From positions 6,670-70,669 of the forward strand of contig CAWJRI010000016.1 in NCBI GenBank assembly GCA_963845175.1: DNA of 64,000 nt, read 5' to 3'. This stretch comes from an uncultured archaeon. GTDB lineage: Archaea > Nanobdellota > Nanobdellia > Woesearchaeales > CAIVOO01. Position 1 is the first letter of the stretch; each line of letters starts with the position of its first letter. The position numbers were made by a program, and so were the translations under genes. Under the pieces are notes generated by a model that was not told the DNA's origin, ran no database searches, and saw nothing but the letters and a program-made list of their open reading frames with translations. Shown one piece after another: positions 19,652 through 27,063 of the stretch.

Positions 19652-19855
19652 TTATTTCTCGTTCACTTGGGGCCTTTTTATAGTTATCGGAATTATGCCC
19701 TTTTCAAACTCCTTTTTTGCTATTTCTATTGGATTGTATCTTAGATCCTCAAGGTCCTTTTCAGATAATTTCATCAGAAAAGGGGCTCCCATTGATATCT
19801 GCAGCGCCCTTGTCCCGATTATTCTGGCTTTCTCATATTTTGTAAGCTCACTCAT
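19652..19855 (-). CDS. rpo6: DNA-directed RNA polymerase subunit Rpo6 (RpoK)
   Basis: LTKYEKARIIGTRALQISMGAP...NPIEIAKKEF..G.IP. Confidence 0.85.
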   Translation of the reverse strand: MSELTKYEKARIIGTRALQISMGAPFLMKLSEKDLEDLRYNPIEIAKKEFEKGIIPITIKRPQVNEK

Positions 19856-20277
19856 TCCAGCACCTTCCTTAAATCGTCTGCTGTCTTCATCCCTATCTCA
19901 ACCATCTTGTCAATGTCTTCAATAGAGATTGGCACATTCCCGCCCTTCTGAAGCGAACAAAGTTTTTTGTCGGTTGATGCAATGGTAAGCCTCGCGTCAA
20001 TTATTTTTTCTTCTGTTGTAAGCGGGTCAACTATGAAGTTGCTGCCTATCTTGCACACAGTGACTGAAATCGGCTCGTTTGTCAAAGGCAGTTTCTTGGT
20101 TGTCTTTGACTTGTAATCAATGTTTTCGCCGTCCAGTTTTGGGAAGACAGCGTTCTTCAGCGCAGCGAGCGCTGCAAGCGAAGAAGCATCTATGAGATTG
20201 CCTTCGTCGTTGATTGTAACGATGTCAATGCACACCATCCAGCATTTTTCTCCTTCCTTTATGCAGAGCTTCTTCAC
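19852..20277 (-). CDS. rrp42: exosome complex component Rrp42, C-terminal part (split/frameshifted)
   Basis: Starts at GTG: (V)KKLCIKEGEKCWMVCIDIVTINDEGNLIDASSLAALAALKN is the second half of the RNase PH domain. The frame is shifted by 1 nt relative to the upstream part. Confidence 0.8.
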   Translation of the reverse strand: MKKLCIKEGEKCWMVCIDIVTINDEGNLIDASSLAALAALKNAVFPKLDGENIDYKSKTTKKLPLTNEPISVTVCKIGSNFIVDPLTTEEKIIDARLTIASTDKKLCSLQKGGNVPISIEDIDKMVEIGMKTADDLRKVLE

Positions 20278-20278
20278 G

Positions 20279-20638
20279 TCAATCGCCTTTGACTTCCCTT
20301 ATGCCCCTGTCGACAACCCTTGCAAGCTCGACAGCCTGTATGTCGGGCGGTCCTGCCTCGAATTCAGGGTTTGACATTGGCGAAAGCTCAGCCTCAACCA
20401 TCATCGAGCCCTCGTTAGGCCTGTCAGCGTAAGGTGTGCCCACTGCAAGCTTCACTCCGGCAAGAACCTCTGTCCCGCCGAATTTCACTCTTGCAGAGCC
20501 CTCTGCATTCTTTGAAATGCCGTATTCAACTTCTATCTTTCTTGTTTCAAGAAGTTTTCTTCCATCGATCCTTAAGTTTTCACTCAGTGATTTTAAAATA
20601 TCTTCTCTGTCCATTTTATTCACCGTTCTCCTCTTCAA
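20279..20638 (-). CDS. rrp42: exosome complex component Rrp42, N-terminal part (split/frameshifted)
   Basis: LRIDGRKLLETRKIEVEYG...AEGSARVKFGGTEVLAGVK...ARVVDRGIRE, then a premature TGA. The canonical continuation SKAIDVKKLCI is readable in the +1 frame. Confidence 0.8.
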   Translation of the reverse strand: MKRRTVNKMDREDILKSLSENLRIDGRKLLETRKIEVEYGISKNAEGSARVKFGGTEVLAGVKLAVGTPYADRPNEGSMMVEAELSPMSNPEFEAGPPDIQAVELARVVDRGIREVKGD

Positions 20639-23921: not shown

Positions 23922-24096
23922 CTTTTTGCTGTAAAACGGTTTTCATTAACCGAGAAAATAAGATTTTGTCTTTTTTCTCCCTTTTCCCGTGCAATGTGTG
24001 AAAAGTTGGAGAGGTTTATAAGTATTGCGGTTTATATACTGGGGGTAAGGAGCATATATAAAAATAAGCTCATTATCTTAATGATGGGGAAGAATA

Positions 24097-25299
24097 ATGA
24101 AAACCAATCCAATACAAAGGGCGCTGGAATTAAGAGAAACTTTAATTGAAGATGACCGAGTCTTAGTTGCAGATTTCAGCGGGACATTGCAGGGCAAGGA
24201 CACTTCAAAAGTTATCGACCTTATGCCAATTGTAGGAACTGAATATTTTCCTTTTAGAACAAAAGTCAATGTCAAGGAGTTAGACCCATTGGCTTCAGAA
24301 ACATACGGCACCGAATTCTTCAATGCATCTAAAAAAATAGACGAGGAAATTGAATCTTTTGTCAGAAGGCAGGAGTTTGACTTTCCGCTGTGGTTCAAAA
24401 ATGAAAAGCAGTTCAGGATGAACCAGGTGCAATTTTATAACTCGCCTTTCATCCTTCAAATAGCCGGATGCAATTTTCATGACGGCAGCTCCTCTGGAGG
24501 CTGCTGGTATTGCTTTGTGGATGACAAAAGCAACGATGGAAAGTCAGGCGCTGGAAAAGTCCAGCTGAGCATTGATGAAACAATTGACAGCATGCTAAGC
24601 GCCAGGGAAAAAATCAGGGAACAGTACTGCGCAGCCGGGCATGAAATGGATTTGAGAGTTCTTAGGGTATCTGGTGGCGAACCCACCATAGCATTGGATT
24701 GGATATTGAACCTTTGGCGGGAAATTGAGAGGAGAGGGCTTGATTTTGTCGGGCAGTTGGACAGCAACCTTTCCACAGCAAGTGTTGTTGAATATTTTGA
24801 GAAAAAGGGGATTTTCGAGGCAAATACACTGGAGAAACTTGCGCAGTATCCTGTAAAAGTCCTTACTGCATTGAAGGGAGTGGATGAAGAGAATCTGCAG
24901 AGCAATGTGCAGTCTGAGACAACCTTGGCAGACCAGGAGCAGTCTCTGAAAAAATTTGTTAACGCAGGCTTTGAAATATTCCCGCAGTTGTACAATCCCA
25001 ATCCAGCAACATTAGAGGCATATTTGGAAAGGATTGACTCCGTTATTGAAAATCTCGCGTTAAGAATCCACGTCGGCCCACTGAAAGTTTATGGGCCAAC
25101 ATCATACAGACTGTCGCTGGAAGCCCGAAGGCGTGGCGTTGAAGAAGAAGGATTCATCAAAAAGCAAAAGGAATTGTGGGATTCAAATTATCGCAGGAGC
25201 TGCGAGGTTTTGGACAAATACCTGAGAGAGAAATATGGCGTCGGCTACAAAGAGGTAACGCGCGCAGATGTCAGGGTTAAAGTAAACAAATTGCTCTAA
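24097..25299 (+). CDS. radical-SAM-like enzyme with expanded cluster loop (C-x10-C-x2-C) and an unknown N-terminal domain
   Basis: AGCNFHDGSSSGGCWYCF (Cys125/136/139, nt 24469-24513), then RVSGGEPT at aa 190-197 (SAM-binding GGE motif) and DSNLS. The N-terminal ~120 aa has no recognisable motif. Confidence 0.55.
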   Translation: MKTNPIQRALELRETLIEDDRVLVADFSGTLQGKDTSKVIDLMPIVGTEYFPFRTKVNVKELDPLASETYGTEFFNASKKIDEEIESFVRRQEFDFPLWFKNEKQFRMNQVQFYNSPFILQIAGCNFHDGSSSGGCWYCFVDDKSNDGKSGAGKVQLSIDETIDSMLSAREKIREQYCAAGHEMDLRVLRVSGGEPTIALDWILNLWREIERRGLDFVGQLDSNLSTASVVEYFEKKGIFEANTLEKLAQYPVKVLTALKGVDEENLQSNVQSETTLADQEQSLKKFVNAGFEIFPQLYNPNPATLEAYLERIDSVIENLALRIHVGPLKVYGPTSYRLSLEARRRGVEEEGFIKKQKELWDSNYRRSCEVLDKYLREKYGVGYKEVTRADVRVKVNKLL

Positions 25300-25301
25300 A
25301 C

Positions 25302-25880
25302 ATGTACAGCGCAACACAGATTGTCGGGGATTTTTTCGAGAGAAAAGTAATGAGGATATTTGAATTGGAAAGGACAGACCCTGGTGCATTGGGGGTTGCG
25401 CCTGACTTGATTTCCAGAGATAGTTCTTTTTATGTTGAAGTAAAGGCATCTGCGTACAACAACGGCGGCGTAATCAACAGGGGGCAACTATACAGGTTTG
25501 ACGAGGACATAGGTGTGAGGCGATTTTACGCCTTTGCTTACCATTCGATTGCAAGAGACATGCAGAGAAATTACCTGACAGAAAAAATGCTGAGGAATGC
25601 CCTGAAGCTAAGGTCATTGTTTTTGTTTCCATTCAGTGTAACAAAGGCACACTTTGAAAATTCCAAAATAAGGAAAAATCCAAAGCACGACGATTTCGTG
25701 CAGCTGAGGGAGAGCCTGGCGCAGAGAATTTTTGAATTAGACGAAGAGGCATGGGAGCATTTGGGTCTCAAAAAGAAGGATTATAAAATGATAAGACCGC
25801 ACGAAAAAATCTACATAGTGACCAGAAACGGGCATTTGGAGCAGCAAATTTTAGATTCATTTTACCCCGAATTGATTTAG
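25302..25880 (+). CDS. PD-(D/E)xK nuclease, Hjc-like motif arrangement, with C-terminal extension
   Basis: Starts 2 nt after the upstream stop. GDFFERKV (E13)...GVAPDLIS (D35)...FYVEVKAS (E46, K48), followed by RGQLYRF...RFYAFAYH, as in Holliday-junction resolvase Hjc. 192 aa versus ~130-145 for Hjc. Confidence 0.5.
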   Translation: MYSATQIVGDFFERKVMRIFELERTDPGALGVAPDLISRDSSFYVEVKASAYNNGGVINRGQLYRFDEDIGVRRFYAFAYHSIARDMQRNYLTEKMLRNALKLRSLFLFPFSVTKAHFENSKIRKNPKHDDFVQLRESLAQRIFELDEEAWEHLGLKKKDYKMIRPHEKIYIVTRNGHLEQQILDSFYPELI

Positions 25881-25893
25881 GCAATCCAAAAAT

Positions 25894-27063
25894 TTAACTG
25901 TTTATAAGAATCAAAGGAACAAACATTTCATCTTTGCTGACTCCGCCGTGTTTTGCTTTATGGAAGTGATTTGTTTTGTAATTTGCGAGTTTTTCTTTTA
26001 AAATATAATTTTTCTTCATTATCAGCACATAATCGCCCACCCTGTCAAATAATCTTTTGTTTGGTTTTCCAATTCCGTAGAAGTTGTCCTTAATCAACTG
26101 CTCTCCTTTGAAGCACCAGCAGTATTTTGACATCTTGGTTTTTACAATTTTTTCAAAATCCTTTGTTTTGCTGGGCCTGACGTAGCAATTTCTCACCCTT
26201 GACTCTCCTGTAAGGGGGATTGTCAGGCACTCTTTTAATCCTTTTATATCTTCAATCCACATTGTTGTTTTTGGAGCAACATCAATAAGACCATGGTCTG
26301 CAGTAACAATTATCTCTGTATTGGTTCCCCTGACTGATTTAGCCAAATTCTTCATCTGTTTATCCAAATCCCGGAAAAGAGCATTGACTTTTCTGCTGCC
26401 AGCCCCCTCATCATGTGTTAATGAATCTAAGTCATAAATGTAGGCGTGAATTAATCTTTTTTTTGCTGATTTCTTTTTGATTAATGTCTTTATTTTTGTA
26501 AAAGTATTCTTGTAATCTTTTGTCGGCATGATTTCGGTATATTTTGAAACATATTCGGTAAATTGGCTGTGGGCGATTTTTTTGTCAATTAATGTAAAGC
26601 ATTTCCCGTTAAATCCTTTATGGAACGATTCAATGTCCATGATTTTGTCCATCTCAAACCCTGATTTGGACAAGGACTCATTGCCATACATTGGTACAAA
26701 AGGCAGAATTGTGGTTATCGCCCCGACTTCCTTAAGATTAATGTCCCAGCCAGTGAGGGCATGCTGCTGTGTCGGATAGCCAACTGAAAAAGAAGTATTC
26801 GCACATGCAGTAGTAGATAAAAAAGTGGAAGTCATTTTTGAACTAAGGTTTTCTAACAAAAAAGAATTTTTTTGTTTTTTTAAGTAATTGTATCCTAATC
26901 CGTCAATTATAATCAAAACTATGTTCTTGAATTTCTTTAACTCTTTTGATTTTAACGAAACAAGCTCAGGATACGAATGTTTTTTTCCAAAGCTGTTTGA
27001 AATAGAACTCATTAAATTAACAATGCTATTTCCCTTGTAATCCGGCAGGGTAAATTCATACAT
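25894..27063 (-). CDS. alkaline-phosphatase-superfamily phosphodiesterase/pyrophosphatase-like protein (COG1524-like)
   Basis: VLIIIDGLGYNY, IIVTADHG and AKHGGVSKDEMFVPL are metal-ligand motifs of the AP superfamily. GC is noticeably lower than in neighbouring genes. Confidence 0.7.
   Translation of the reverse strand: MYEFTLPDYKGNSIVNLMSSISNSFGKKHSYPELVSLKSKELKKFKNIVLIIIDGLGYNYLKKQKNSFLLENLSSKMTSTFLSTTACANTSFSVGYPTQQHALTGWDINLKEVGAITTILPFVPMYGNESLSKSGFEMDKIMDIESFHKGFNGKCFTLIDKKIAHSQFTEYVSKYTEIMPTKDYKNTFTKIKTLIKKKSAKKRLIHAYIYDLDSLTHDEGAGSRKVNALFRDLDKQMKNLAKSVRGTNTEIIVTADHGLIDVAPKTTMWIEDIKGLKECLTIPLTGESRVRNCYVRPSKTKDFEKIVKTKMSKYCWCFKGEQLIKDNFYGIGKPNKRLFDRVGDYVLIMKKNYILKEKLANYKTNHFHKAKHGGVSKDEMFVPLILINS

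What the first reader, a model, noticed from the sequence alone, without database searches (positions are those of the whole stretch)
24097..25880. Atypical radical-SAM-like enzyme translationally coupled to an Hjc-like PD-(D/E)xK nuclease, inserted into the conserved exosome/proteasome neighbourhood
Seen in sequence:
- ORF1 (400 aa) carries AGCNFHDGSSSGGCWYCF, i.e. C-x10-C-x2-C instead of the canonical CX3CX2C.
- About 55 aa later it has RVSGGEPT (the GGE SAM-binding motif) and then DSNLS, so a radical-SAM core is plausible.
- That core is preceded by ~120 aa with no motif I recognise.
- ORF2 starts 2 nt after the ORF1 stop. It shows the E...PD...ExK triad in Hjc-like order (GDFFERKV / APDLIS / YVEVKAS) and has ~50 extra C-terminal residues.
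- The pair has its own AT-rich TATA-containing upstream region (23922-24096).
- It separates Pop5-psmA-SBDS-rrp4-rrp41-rrp42 from psmB-aCPSF1, genes that are housekeeping and syntenic in archaea.

Established knowledge: expanded cluster loops exist in a few radical-SAM enzymes (for example CX14CX2C in Burkholderia QueE, a 7-deazapurine pathway enzyme). PD-(D/E)xK folds are the effector of restriction, repair and many defence systems.

Inference: this is a two-gene nucleic-acid modification/cleavage module, either a defence or a DNA/RNA repair-modification system. I do not recognise this pairing as a described system.
Basis: partly seen in the sequence, partly recalled or inferred. Interest (0 to 1): 0.75.

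Follow-up and report, generated by a model that had tools for sequence, protein, structure and literature searches.

The report
Two unlinked DPANN genes, chance neighbours
A genuine but uncharacterised radical-SAM enzyme and a genuine but uncharacterised PD-(D/E)xK nuclease, each conserved separately across DPANN archaea, are adjacent only in this genome and its nearest relatives, so they are not a conserved two-gene system.

Summary
ORF1 (24097-25299, 400 aa) is a radical-SAM enzyme with an invariant CX10CX2C loop and a GGEP motif; its model matches radical-SAM folds. ORF2 (25302-25880, 192 aa) starts 2 nt after ORF1 and has an invariant E...PD...ExK triad.

The inference of a two-gene module does not hold. 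About 70 ORF1 loci and 24 ORF2 loci from other genomes show no co-occurrence within about 6 kb. The pair is seen intact only in one near-identical genome (L091). L092, with housekeeping proteins mostly 94-98% identical, keeps ORF2 in the same slot but has other genes in place of ORF1.

Neither protein matches any PADLOC, PHROGs or specific NCBIfam model. The "atypical" loop is a 7-residue insertion: sister DPANN clades carry CX3CX2C at the same position, and a phage QueE-like protein has the same CX10CX2C.

ORF2 is not Hjc. The profile-profile match has 2% probability, and canonical Hjc genes exist separately in related DPANN loci. Its neighbours elsewhere are often DNA repair or replication genes.

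Verdict: two independent, uncharacterised, DPANN-restricted families, placed side by side in a variable slot. Modest interest.

The parts
23922..24096 (.). Divergent AT-rich intergenic region between the Pop5 operon (- strand) and ORF1 (+ strand). It has TATA-like elements (TTTATATA at 24031-24038, ATATATAA at about 24055-24062).
   Evidence: Sequence read. GC is about 0.36. The bacterial-type promoter scan was uninformative. Promoter function is inferred, not shown.
24097..25299 (+). ORF1: a 400-aa radical-SAM enzyme from an uncharacterised DPANN-restricted family.
   Evidence: ORF. Pfam Radical_SAM scores 27.7 bits. 155 homologues at 55-100% identity. AF2 model pLDDT 93. Best Foldseek PDB matches are PFL-activase, OxsB, AprD4, LIAS, NifB and BlsE.
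24097..24441 (+). ORF1 N-terminal domain (about residues 1-115). It is strongly conserved and rich in invariant basic and aromatic residues (R13, R54, K56, K60, W99, K101). It matches no known family and is the presumed substrate-binding cap.
   Evidence: Invariant columns. No Pfam, NCBIfam or PDB sequence match. It is predicted with confidence as part of the model. Its role is inferred.
24469..24513 (+). Codons for C125...C136..C139 (CNFHDGSSSGGCWYC): a [4Fe-4S] cluster-binding loop in which 7 extra residues make CX10CX2C instead of CX3CX2C.
   Evidence: The three Cys are invariant. Sister clades have CX3CX2C at the same place. The loop aligns without gaps to the CX10CX2C loop of a phage QueE-like protein.
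24670..24684 (+). Codons for S192-G-G-E-P196, the GGE SAM-binding motif.
   Evidence: Invariant. It lies on strand E188-193 of the model.
25300..25301 (+). The 2-nt spacer between the ORF1 stop codon and the ORF2 start codon.
   Evidence: The spacer is 17 nt in the closest relative, L091, so tight coupling is not conserved.
25302..25880 (+). ORF2: a 192-aa PD-(D/E)xK nuclease from an uncharacterised DPANN-restricted family. It has an N-terminal catalytic core and a C-terminal domain of about 70 residues.
   Evidence: ORF. 117 homologues, all about 190 aa and all unnamed. Model pLDDT 93. Best folds are Afu Hjc, EcoRV, Sso Hjc and DpnI, all weak.
25338..25445 (+). Codons spanning the catalytic residues E13, P34-D35 and E46-V-K48 of ORF2.
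   Evidence: Invariant in 33 homologues. This is the only stretch that aligns to the Hjc profile.

Best explanation
The two genes are independent and happen to be adjacent. In this genome and its nearest relatives they are probably co-transcribed, inside a rearrangement-prone slot between the Pop5-psmA-SBDS-exosome operon and psmB-aCPSF1.

**ORF1**
- It is a single-cluster radical-SAM enzyme. C125, C136 and C139 hold a [4Fe-4S] cluster, and the GGEP motif and a partial TIM barrel bind SAM to generate a 5'-deoxyadenosyl radical. The fold and motifs are shown; the chemistry is inferred.
- The unusual CX10CX2C is a glycine-rich 7-residue insertion in the canonical loop, specific to the Woesearchaeota-type subfamily.
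- A conserved basic N-terminal domain of about 115 residues and a C-terminal helical bundle most likely form the substrate site.
- The family is restricted to DPANN archaea, shows no consistent partner gene, and often sits among translation genes. My best guess is that it modifies a conserved cellular macromolecule (RNA or protein) or a nucleotide. This is inferred.

**ORF2**
- It is a metal-dependent PD-(D/E)xK endonuclease (E13/D35/E46/K48) with an extra C-terminal domain.
- It forms a DPANN-specific family distinct from Hjc.
- It most likely acts in DNA repair or replication-associated DNA processing. This is inferred from recurrent neighbours: Nre, RNase HII, XPD, PolB, AP endonuclease and UDG/Fpg/PolX/ligase.
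For: **Independence of the two genes**
- tblastn of both proteins over 70 ORF1 loci and 20 ORF2 loci found no co-occurrence. Four more ORF2 loci also lack ORF1.
- The intact pair is seen only in L091, where housekeeping proteins are 96-99% identical. L075 carries ORF1 in the same position, but the contig ends inside the gene.
- L092 keeps ORF2, but two unrelated genes replace ORF1. Its aCPSF1 is 98% identical and its Rrp4 and Rrp41 97%.
- L012 (ORF2 89% identical) has a different upstream gene.
- Neighbour clustering shows no universal partner for either gene.

**ORF1 as a radical-SAM enzyme**
- Searches support the assignment.
- The loop is an insertion: the core family is always CNFHDGxxxGGCxYC, while the nearest relatives (E from 1e-113 to 1e-36, from Aenigmatarchaeota and Nanoarchaeota) have CX3CX2C.
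- The same loop length occurs in a phage QueE-like protein.
- Expanded loops are already documented for QueE and HmdB (PMC4389238).

**ORF2 as a nuclease that is not Hjc**
- Searches support the nuclease core. hhalign against an Hjc alignment gives 2% probability.
- Canonical Hjc genes, 44% identical to Pfu Hjc, are present in DPANN loci L034 and L038. The same queries do not detect ORF2.

**Repair context for ORF2**
- Nre is coupled 2 nt upstream in L006.
- RNase HII is adjacent in L008 and L024.
- PolB is nearby in L024 and XPD in L021.
- UDG, Fpg, PolX and ligase are nearby in L010.
- AP endonuclease is adjacent in L095.

**No sign of defence or mobility**
- No PADLOC hit, no PHROGs hit, no relevant phage match, and GC equal to the flanks.
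Against: - The 2-nt spacing and shared orientation mean the two are almost certainly co-expressed here, and a lineage-specific functional link cannot be excluded.
- Genome-level co-occurrence without adjacency was not tested, because only about 6-8 kb around each gene was available.
- In one sub-clade ORF1 is followed by a Rad50/LmuB-like ATPase. This would fit a DNA-related role for ORF1 and so a thematic link to ORF2.
- ORF1 and ORF2 diverge faster (87-92%) than the flanking core genes (96-99%). They behave more like accessory genes than core informational genes.
- The repair-gene enrichment around ORF2 is only suggestive: 5 of about 20 distinct contexts have such a gene immediately adjacent.
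- No substrate for ORF1 is identified.
Confidence: 0.72

Rival explanations
1. One reading: ORF1 and ORF2 form a dedicated two-gene nucleic-acid modification and cleavage module. It would act either in defence (modify self or foreign DNA or RNA, then cleave) or as a radical-SAM-dependent repair pair.
For: - The 2-nt spacing and shared strand.
- The pair is retained in L091.
- The slot varies between close relatives.
- ORF1 lies next to a Rad50/LmuB-like ATPase in one sub-clade.
- ORF2 lies next to repair genes elsewhere.
Against: - None of 70 ORF1 loci and none of 24 ORF2 loci outside the immediate relatives keep the pairing.
- A near-identical genome keeps ORF2 without ORF1 at this site.
- No PADLOC or PHROGs match.
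- GC content is the same as the flanks.
- The spacer is not conserved (17 nt in L091).
Confidence: 0.08
2. ORF2 is a solitary or orphan restriction-type (or selfish) endonuclease, not a repair enzyme.
For: - Foldseek hits include EcoRV and DpnI; DpnI also combines a PD-(D/E)xK domain with a C-terminal DNA-binding domain.
- One deep-branching homologue lies near a D12-class adenine methyltransferase and transposases (L097).
- The best viral fold match is a haloarchaeal virus protein.
Against: - The family is uniform in length, at about 190 aa.
- Members are 35-100% identical across Woese-, Pace-, Micr- and Aenigmatarchaeota.
- The gene is syntenically stable within the window's clade. This is not how restriction enzymes usually behave.
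- No adjacent methyltransferase in about 19 of 20 contexts.
- No PADLOC hit.
Confidence: 0.1
3. ORF1 is a divergent QueE-type 7-deazapurine pathway enzyme (or another small-molecule nucleotide-transforming radical-SAM enzyme), as hinted by the expanded cluster loop.
For: - The only phage-genome hit is an annotated QueE with an identical CX10CX2C loop length, 27% identity over residues 119-262.
- One source names a homologue 'organic radical activating enzyme'.
Against: - No QueE NCBIfam model matches ORF1 even at E<=1.
- The phage protein itself reaches only about 72 bits against QueE cut-offs of 200-300 bits.
- QueE structures are not among the top 50 Foldseek hits.
- ORF1 is 400 aa with extra N- and C-terminal domains.
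- No recurrent neighbour cluster was annotated as QueC, QueD or TGT, although most clusters were not annotated.
Confidence: 0.07
4. ORF1 is a protein-radical activase (PFL-AE or NrdG-like) for an unidentified glycyl-radical or other protein substrate.
For: - The best structural match is E. coli PFL-activating enzyme (E 9e-6, TM 0.66 on the target).
- It has a single cluster.
- Some sources annotate homologues as PFL-activating enzyme.
Against: - The NCBIfam activase models score 13-14 bits against cut-offs of 250-326.
- A canonical NrdG-like activase is present separately in at least one DPANN locus (L022, position -3; its sequence starts ...CNFRCGFCH).
- No glycyl-radical enzyme was seen next to ORF1 among recurrent neighbours.
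Confidence: 0.1

Closest known systems
PFL-activating enzyme, NrdG and QueE type single-cluster radical-SAM enzymes (COG1180/COG0602 group)
   Same: - Partial TIM-barrel radical-SAM fold.
- One [4Fe-4S] site near the start of the core.
- A GGE motif.
- The best Foldseek match is PFL-AE 8fo0.
- An expanded first-to-second Cys spacing occurs in QueE (CX14CX2C, PMC4389238), and exactly CX10CX2C occurs in a phage QueE-like protein.
   Different: - ORF1 is 400 aa, against about 210-250 aa.
- It has a conserved N-terminal domain of about 115 residues and a C-terminal helical extension with no detectable homologues.
- No NCBIfam model of these families comes near its cut-off.
- Sequence identity to structural matches is 10-15%.
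Archaeal Holliday junction resolvase Hjc (PF01870; 1GEF, 2WCW, 1HH1)
   Same: - The order and spacing of catalytic residues is almost identical: ORF2 has E13/D35/E46/K48. Pfu Hjc residues E9, D33, E46 and K48 are invariant in the Hjc alignment; that these four are the catalytic residues is from my memory of the literature.
- The top Foldseek PDB hit is Afu Hjc.
   Different: - No Pfam Hjc hit.
- HMMER against PDB finds no Hjc.
- hhalign gives 2% probability, with only 31 columns around PD..EVK aligned.
- The fold match is weak (E 0.086, TM 0.36 on the query and 0.51 on the target).
- ORF2 has about 70 extra C-terminal residues.
- Canonical Hjc genes exist separately in related DPANN loci.
Type II restriction endonucleases EcoRV and DpnI
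   Same: PD-(D/E)xK core. DpnI also has a catalytic domain followed by a C-terminal DNA-binding domain. Both are weak Foldseek hits.
   Different: - Matches are below significance (E 0.1-1.3).
- ORF2 is a conserved family with syntenic stability in its clade.
- No partner methyltransferase in nearly all contexts.

Membership tests
Radical SAM superfamily (ORF1) | Three-cysteine [4Fe-4S] binding motif near the start of the core | tested here: met
   C125, C136 and C139 are invariant in 39 sequences. The spacing is CX10CX2C in the core family and CX3CX2C in sister clades at the same position.
Radical SAM superfamily (ORF1) | GGE SAM-binding motif and partial (beta/alpha)6 TIM-barrel fold | tested here: met
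   SGGEP at 192-196 is invariant. AF2 model pLDDT 93. All significant Foldseek PDB hits are radical-SAM enzymes.
Radical SAM superfamily (ORF1) | Pfam PF04055 gathering score | tested here: inconclusive
   ORF1 scores 27.7 bits against a 29.5-bit cut-off. Many homologues carry a precomputed PF04055 hit, and distant relatives score 32-44 bits.
Radical SAM superfamily (ORF1) | Reductive SAM cleavage to 5'-deoxyadenosine | not testable with these tools
   Needs anaerobic reconstitution and a biochemical assay.
QueE (7-carboxy-7-deazaguanine synthase) | Match to QueE equivalog models (TIGR03365, TIGR03963, TIGR04322, TIGR04349, TIGR04508) | tested here: not met
   None is listed for ORF1 even at E<=1. 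Only the loop length resembles a phage QueE-like protein.
Glycyl-radical enzyme activases (PFL-AE, NrdG, YjjW) | Match to activase equivalog models above the cut-off | tested here: not met
   14.2 bits against a cut-off of 326, and 13.5 against 250. The similarity is structural only.
RaSEA (archaeosine radical-SAM enzyme) | Sequence membership and pairing with ArcS | tested here: inconclusive
   No NCBIfam family beyond four chance-level hits. No recurrent neighbour cluster was annotated as ArcS, but most clusters were not annotated. I had no RaSEA sequence to compare directly, and the paper read gives no motif.
PD-(D/E)xK nuclease superfamily (ORF2) | E...(P)D...(D/E)xK catalytic residues on the core alpha-beta-beta-beta-alpha-beta fold | tested here: met
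   E13, P34-D35 and E46-V-K48 are invariant. The model has H4-19, E22-24, E36-38, E44-48, E56-59 and following helices. The top PDB folds are Hjc, EcoRV and DpnI, all weak.
Hjc Holliday junction resolvase family (ORF2) | Sequence or profile membership (PF01870 or alignment to solved Hjc proteins) | tested here: not met
   No Pfam hit. No Hjc in HMMER-versus-PDB searches. hhalign gives 2% probability. tblastn with four Hjc/Hje sequences finds canonical Hjc in L034 and L038 but not ORF2.
Hjc Holliday junction resolvase family (ORF2) | Four-way junction resolving activity as a dimer | not testable with these tools
   Needs a biochemical assay.
Known anti-phage defence systems | Match of either protein to a defence-system component model | tested here: not met
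   PADLOC returns no families for either protein at E<=1. PHROGs returns none.
Known anti-phage defence systems | Conserved co-localisation of the components across genomes | tested here: not met
   No co-occurrence at 70 ORF1 loci or 24 ORF2 loci outside the nearest relatives.

The most novel reading that the evidence does not exclude
In this Woesearchaeota-type lineage, a DPANN-specific radical-SAM enzyme that acts on damaged or modified DNA has recently been placed in an operon with a DPANN-specific repair nuclease. Together they would form a young radical-SAM-dependent DNA repair or processing pair. The same radical-SAM enzyme sitting next to a Rad50/LmuB-like ATPase in another sub-clade would reflect the same DNA-directed role.
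Probability: 0.07. Interest if true: 0.65.

Novelty: new member of a known kind. Interest (0 to 1): 0.3.

Why it matters
As a system, it does not matter much: the adjacency is an accident of one lineage, not a new defence or repair module.

Individually, the two proteins are well-defined, confidently modelled, DPANN-restricted families with no annotation. One is a radical-SAM enzyme with an unknown N-terminal domain. The other is an Hjc-like but distinct nuclease that recurs next to DNA repair and replication genes.

DPANN archaea have very small genomes, so conserved lineage-specific enzymes are reasonable targets for working out how these organisms maintain RNA, proteins and DNA.

The result also shows that CX10CX2C is simply a loop insertion in an otherwise canonical radical-SAM clade.

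Tried and rejected
**Defence system: rejected**
- PADLOC and PHROGs on both proteins gave no hits.
- tblastn against 50,697 phage genomes found nothing for ORF2. For ORF1 it found one weak QueE-like hit.

**Specific family assignment for ORF1: none found**
- No NCBIfam or Pfam family came near a cut-off for ORF1 or for 10 distant relatives.
- HMMER single-sequence and profile searches against PDB sequences gave only chance hits for both proteins.

**ORF2 as the Hjc orthologue: rejected**.

**Horizontal insertion judged by composition: rejected.** GC is equal to the flanks.

**A conserved functional partner for ORF1: none is universal**. The recurring neighbours are clade-specific:
- acylphosphatase (10 loci)
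- Cbf5/TruB (8 loci)
- a class II aaRS (8 loci)
- a Rad50/LmuB-like ATPase (6 loci, 4 non-redundant)

**Domain fusions in long ORF2 homologues:** the extra 95 or so N-terminal residues of P0222 and P0227 match no Pfam family.

**Literature:** searches for DPANN with radical SAM and DPANN with Hjc found nothing on these families. The RaSEA paper gave no sequence features to compare.

**Promoter and terminator scan:** it uses a bacterial consensus, and counts were not above the shuffled controls.
Full report
**1.

The window contains ORF1 at 24097..25299 (+ strand, 400 aa) and ORF2 at 25302..25880 (+ strand, 192 aa), separated by two nucleotides.
- ORF1 carries AGCNFHDGSSSGGCWYCF (C125-x10-C136-x2-C139), RVSGGEPT (residues 190-197) and DSNLS (residues 222-226).
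- ORF2 carries GDFFERKV (E13), APDLIS (P34-D35) and YVEVKAS (E46-x-K48).
Pop5, proteasome alpha, SBDS, Rrp4, Rrp41 and Rrp42 lie on the minus strand. Proteasome beta and aCPSF1/FttA lie on the plus strand.
- The upstream 175 bp is AT-rich with TATA-like elements. It is a divergent region shared with the Pop5 operon.

**2. Both proteins are real, conserved and confidently folded**

ORF1:
- It has 155 homologues, nearly all 390-430 aa and 55-100% identical. Those that are named come from Woesearchaeota, Nanoarchaeota or unclassified archaeon bins.
- In a 39-sequence alignment the three cysteines, SGGEP, DxNLST and many N-terminal residues are invariant.
- The AlphaFold2 model has mean pLDDT 93.
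- Its significant PDB fold matches are all radical-SAM enzymes: PFL-activase 8fo0 (E 9e-6, TM 0.66 on the target), OxsB, AprD4, LIAS, NifB and BlsE.
- Pfam Radical_SAM scores 27.7 bits, just under the 29.5 cut-off.

ORF2:
- A single-sequence search finds 60 homologues and a profile search finds 117. All are about 190 aa and unnamed, from Woese-, Pace-, Micr- and Aenigmatarchaeota bins.
- E13, P34-D35 and E46-V-K48 are invariant, as are N54-G-G-V57 and Q62.
- The model has pLDDT 93.
- Its best PDB matches are A. fulgidus Hjc, EcoRV, S. solfataricus Hjc and DpnI, all weak (best E 0.086).

**3. The two genes are not a conserved pair**

I fetched 65 ORF1 loci from metagenomes and 14 ORF2 loci from GTDB genomes, plus loci around selected homologues. 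I then ran tblastn with both proteins against all of them.
- Not one of 70 ORF1 loci contains ORF2, and not one of 20 ORF2 loci contains ORF1, within about 6 kb.
- Four further ORF2 loci also lack ORF1.

Very close relatives show the same thing:
- L091 and L075 have housekeeping proteins 96-99% identical to the window and carry ORF1 at the same place. L091 also shows ORF2, with a 17-nt spacer. The L075 contig ends inside ORF1, so ORF2 cannot be assessed there.
- L092 has aCPSF1 98%, Rrp4 and Rrp41 97% and Pop5 96% identical, with the same gene order. It keeps ORF2 (87%) but has an unrelated 285-aa gene and an opposite-strand 196-aa gene where ORF1 would be. It also has a CN-hydrolase in place of the window's downstream PglZ-like gene.
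- L012 (ORF2 89%) has the 200-aa gene upstream.
- At 80% ORF2 identity (L094) the whole neighbourhood is different.

So ORF2 is the stable resident of a variable slot. ORF1 is present there only in the window's immediate lineage.

ORF1 and ORF2 have about 44-46% GC, like the flanks, so neither looks recently imported from a compositionally different donor.

**4. There is no defence signature**

Neither protein matches any PADLOC model at E<=1 or any PHROG. ORF2 has no match in 50,697 phage genomes.

**5. What ORF1 is**

A profile search of 1.84 billion representatives shows a compact core family, followed by a tail of distant radical-SAM relatives.

A motif scan shows how the loop arose:
- The core family always has CNFHDGxxxGGCxYC.
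- The next relatives (E from 1e-113 to 1e-36) come from Aenigmatarchaeota and Nanoarchaeota bins. They have a canonical CX3CX2C at the same place, for example CNLHCVYC.
- A few other relatives have CX6, CX10 or CX11.
- The atypical spacing is therefore a subfamily-specific 7-residue insertion in a standard loop.

Comparison with known families:
- The only phage hit for ORF1 is a Burkholderia phage protein annotated QueE. Its loop, CNYGAKSEAGACRFC, is also CX10CX2C and aligns to ORF1 without gaps.
- That phage protein is itself only a weak QueE match, and no QueE model hits ORF1.
- Expanded loops are established for QueE and HmdB (PMC4389238).
- No NCBIfam or Pfam family is approached by ORF1 or by ten of its distant relatives.

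What can be said about function:
- Only three cysteines are invariant. It is therefore a single-cluster enzyme, which argues against methylthiotransferase-, TYW1-, MoaA- or RlmN-type chemistry. This rests on established knowledge of those families.
- Neighbour clustering finds no universal partner. Recurrent neighbours are clade-specific: acylphosphatase, Cbf5/TruB, a class II aaRS and ribosomal or RNA polymerase genes. In one sub-clade the downstream gene is a Rad50/LmuB-like ATPase with a CPTC hook.
- The substrate is unknown. My best inference is modification of a conserved macromolecule or nucleotide, with the basic N-terminal domain as the substrate-binding element.

**6. What ORF2 is**

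The catalytic residue spacing (E13/D35/E46/K48) is nearly that of Pfu Hjc. Residues E9, D33, E46 and K48 are invariant in my Hjc alignment, and the Pfu sequence I used was verified as identical to 1GEF. That these four are the catalytic residues is from my memory of the literature.

Membership in the Hjc family nevertheless fails:
- There is no Pfam or PDB sequence hit.
- hhalign of the ORF2 alignment against an Hjc/Hje alignment gives 2% probability over 31 columns.
- tblastn with four Hjc/Hje sequences readily finds canonical Hjc genes (44% identity) in DPANN loci L034 and L038, but nothing at ORF2 or its homologues.

ORF2 is therefore a separate DPANN family with an added C-terminal domain.

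Across about 20 distinct contexts, an immediately adjacent gene is a DNA repair or replication gene in five:
- Nre, 2 nt upstream (L006)
- RNase HII (L008 and L024)
- XPD (L021)
- AP endonuclease (L095)

In addition, PolB lies two genes away in L024, and UDG, Fpg, PolX and ligase lie nearby in L010. Other contexts are translation-related or rich in mobile elements. This pattern suggests a DNA repair or processing nuclease but does not prove it.

**7. Verdict**

- The sequence observations are confirmed, and the fold-level readings (radical SAM, PD-(D/E)xK) are right.
- The proposed two-gene module is not supported. The adjacency is confined to one shallow lineage, inside a slot that differs even between near-identical genomes.
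- Each gene is a new, uncharacterised member of a well-known superfamily.
- A lineage-specific functional link cannot be excluded, because the two are probably co-transcribed here and I could not test genome-level co-occurrence. Nothing beyond adjacency supports it.

Noticed in passing
window 19852-20638 (- strand); break near 20293-20297: Rrp42 (exosome RNase PH subunit) is split into two ORFs by a 1-nt insertion (GGGAAG against GGG-AG) relative to the intact 253-aa orthologue in L092. The local DNA is 94% identical. This is either an assembly error or a real frameshift in an essential gene.
   Followed up: partly
window 25894-27063 (- strand): The gene just downstream of ORF2 is an alkaline-phosphatase-superfamily protein (Pfam Phosphodiest, Metalloenzyme and PglZ). 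Its GC is lower (0.35-0.38) than its surroundings. It is present in L012 but replaced by a CN-hydrolase in L092, which again marks this slot as variable. Its PADLOC PglZ hits are only marginal.
   Followed up: partly
L002:9260-14174, L057, L062, L065, L078 (downstream of ORF1 homologues): In one Woesearchaeota-type sub-clade ORF1 is followed by a 688-689-aa SMC/Rad50-like ATPase with a CPTC zinc hook. This ATPase matches the Lamassu LmuB model full-length (E 6e-36). After it (and a NUDIX gene in L002) come two paralogous unknown proteins of about 350-400 aa, and no Mre11 is adjacent. Whether this is housekeeping Rad50 or a Lamassu-like system is unresolved.
   Followed up: partly
L006:4796-6585 and L007: An ORF2 homologue starts 2 nt after a 400-aa Nre (Nre_N and Nre_C) DNA-repair gene. 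This is the same spacing as the ORF1-ORF2 junction in the window, so ORF2 is found tightly coupled to different upstream genes in different lineages.
   Followed up: no
L015:4856-6406 and L017:5026-6576 (Micrarchaeota): ORF2 homologues here are called about 220 aa long, with an N-terminal extension. They abut, with a 0-nt gap, a conserved 293-aa protein that has no Pfam match. This could be a lineage-specific partner or a mis-called start.
   Followed up: no
L034:5192-5470 and L038:10043-10327: Canonical Hjc orthologues (44% identical to P. furiosus Hjc) lie a few kb from ORF1 homologues in two DPANN metagenome contigs. This shows that these lineages have a standard Hjc in addition to the ORF2 family.
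   Followed up: partly
L093:445-1308 (Burkholderia phage BCSR5, QRE00060.1): A 287-aa phage protein annotated as QueE has a CX10CX2C cluster loop. It matches QueE models only over its N-terminal half, at about 72 bits against cut-offs of 200-300, so its annotation may be over-specific.
   Followed up: partly
P0222 (288 aa) and P0227 (293 aa), ORF2 homologues: Two ORF2-family proteins carry a conserved N-terminal extension of about 95 residues with no Pfam match. In P0227 the PD of the catalytic motif reads TD.
   Followed up: no
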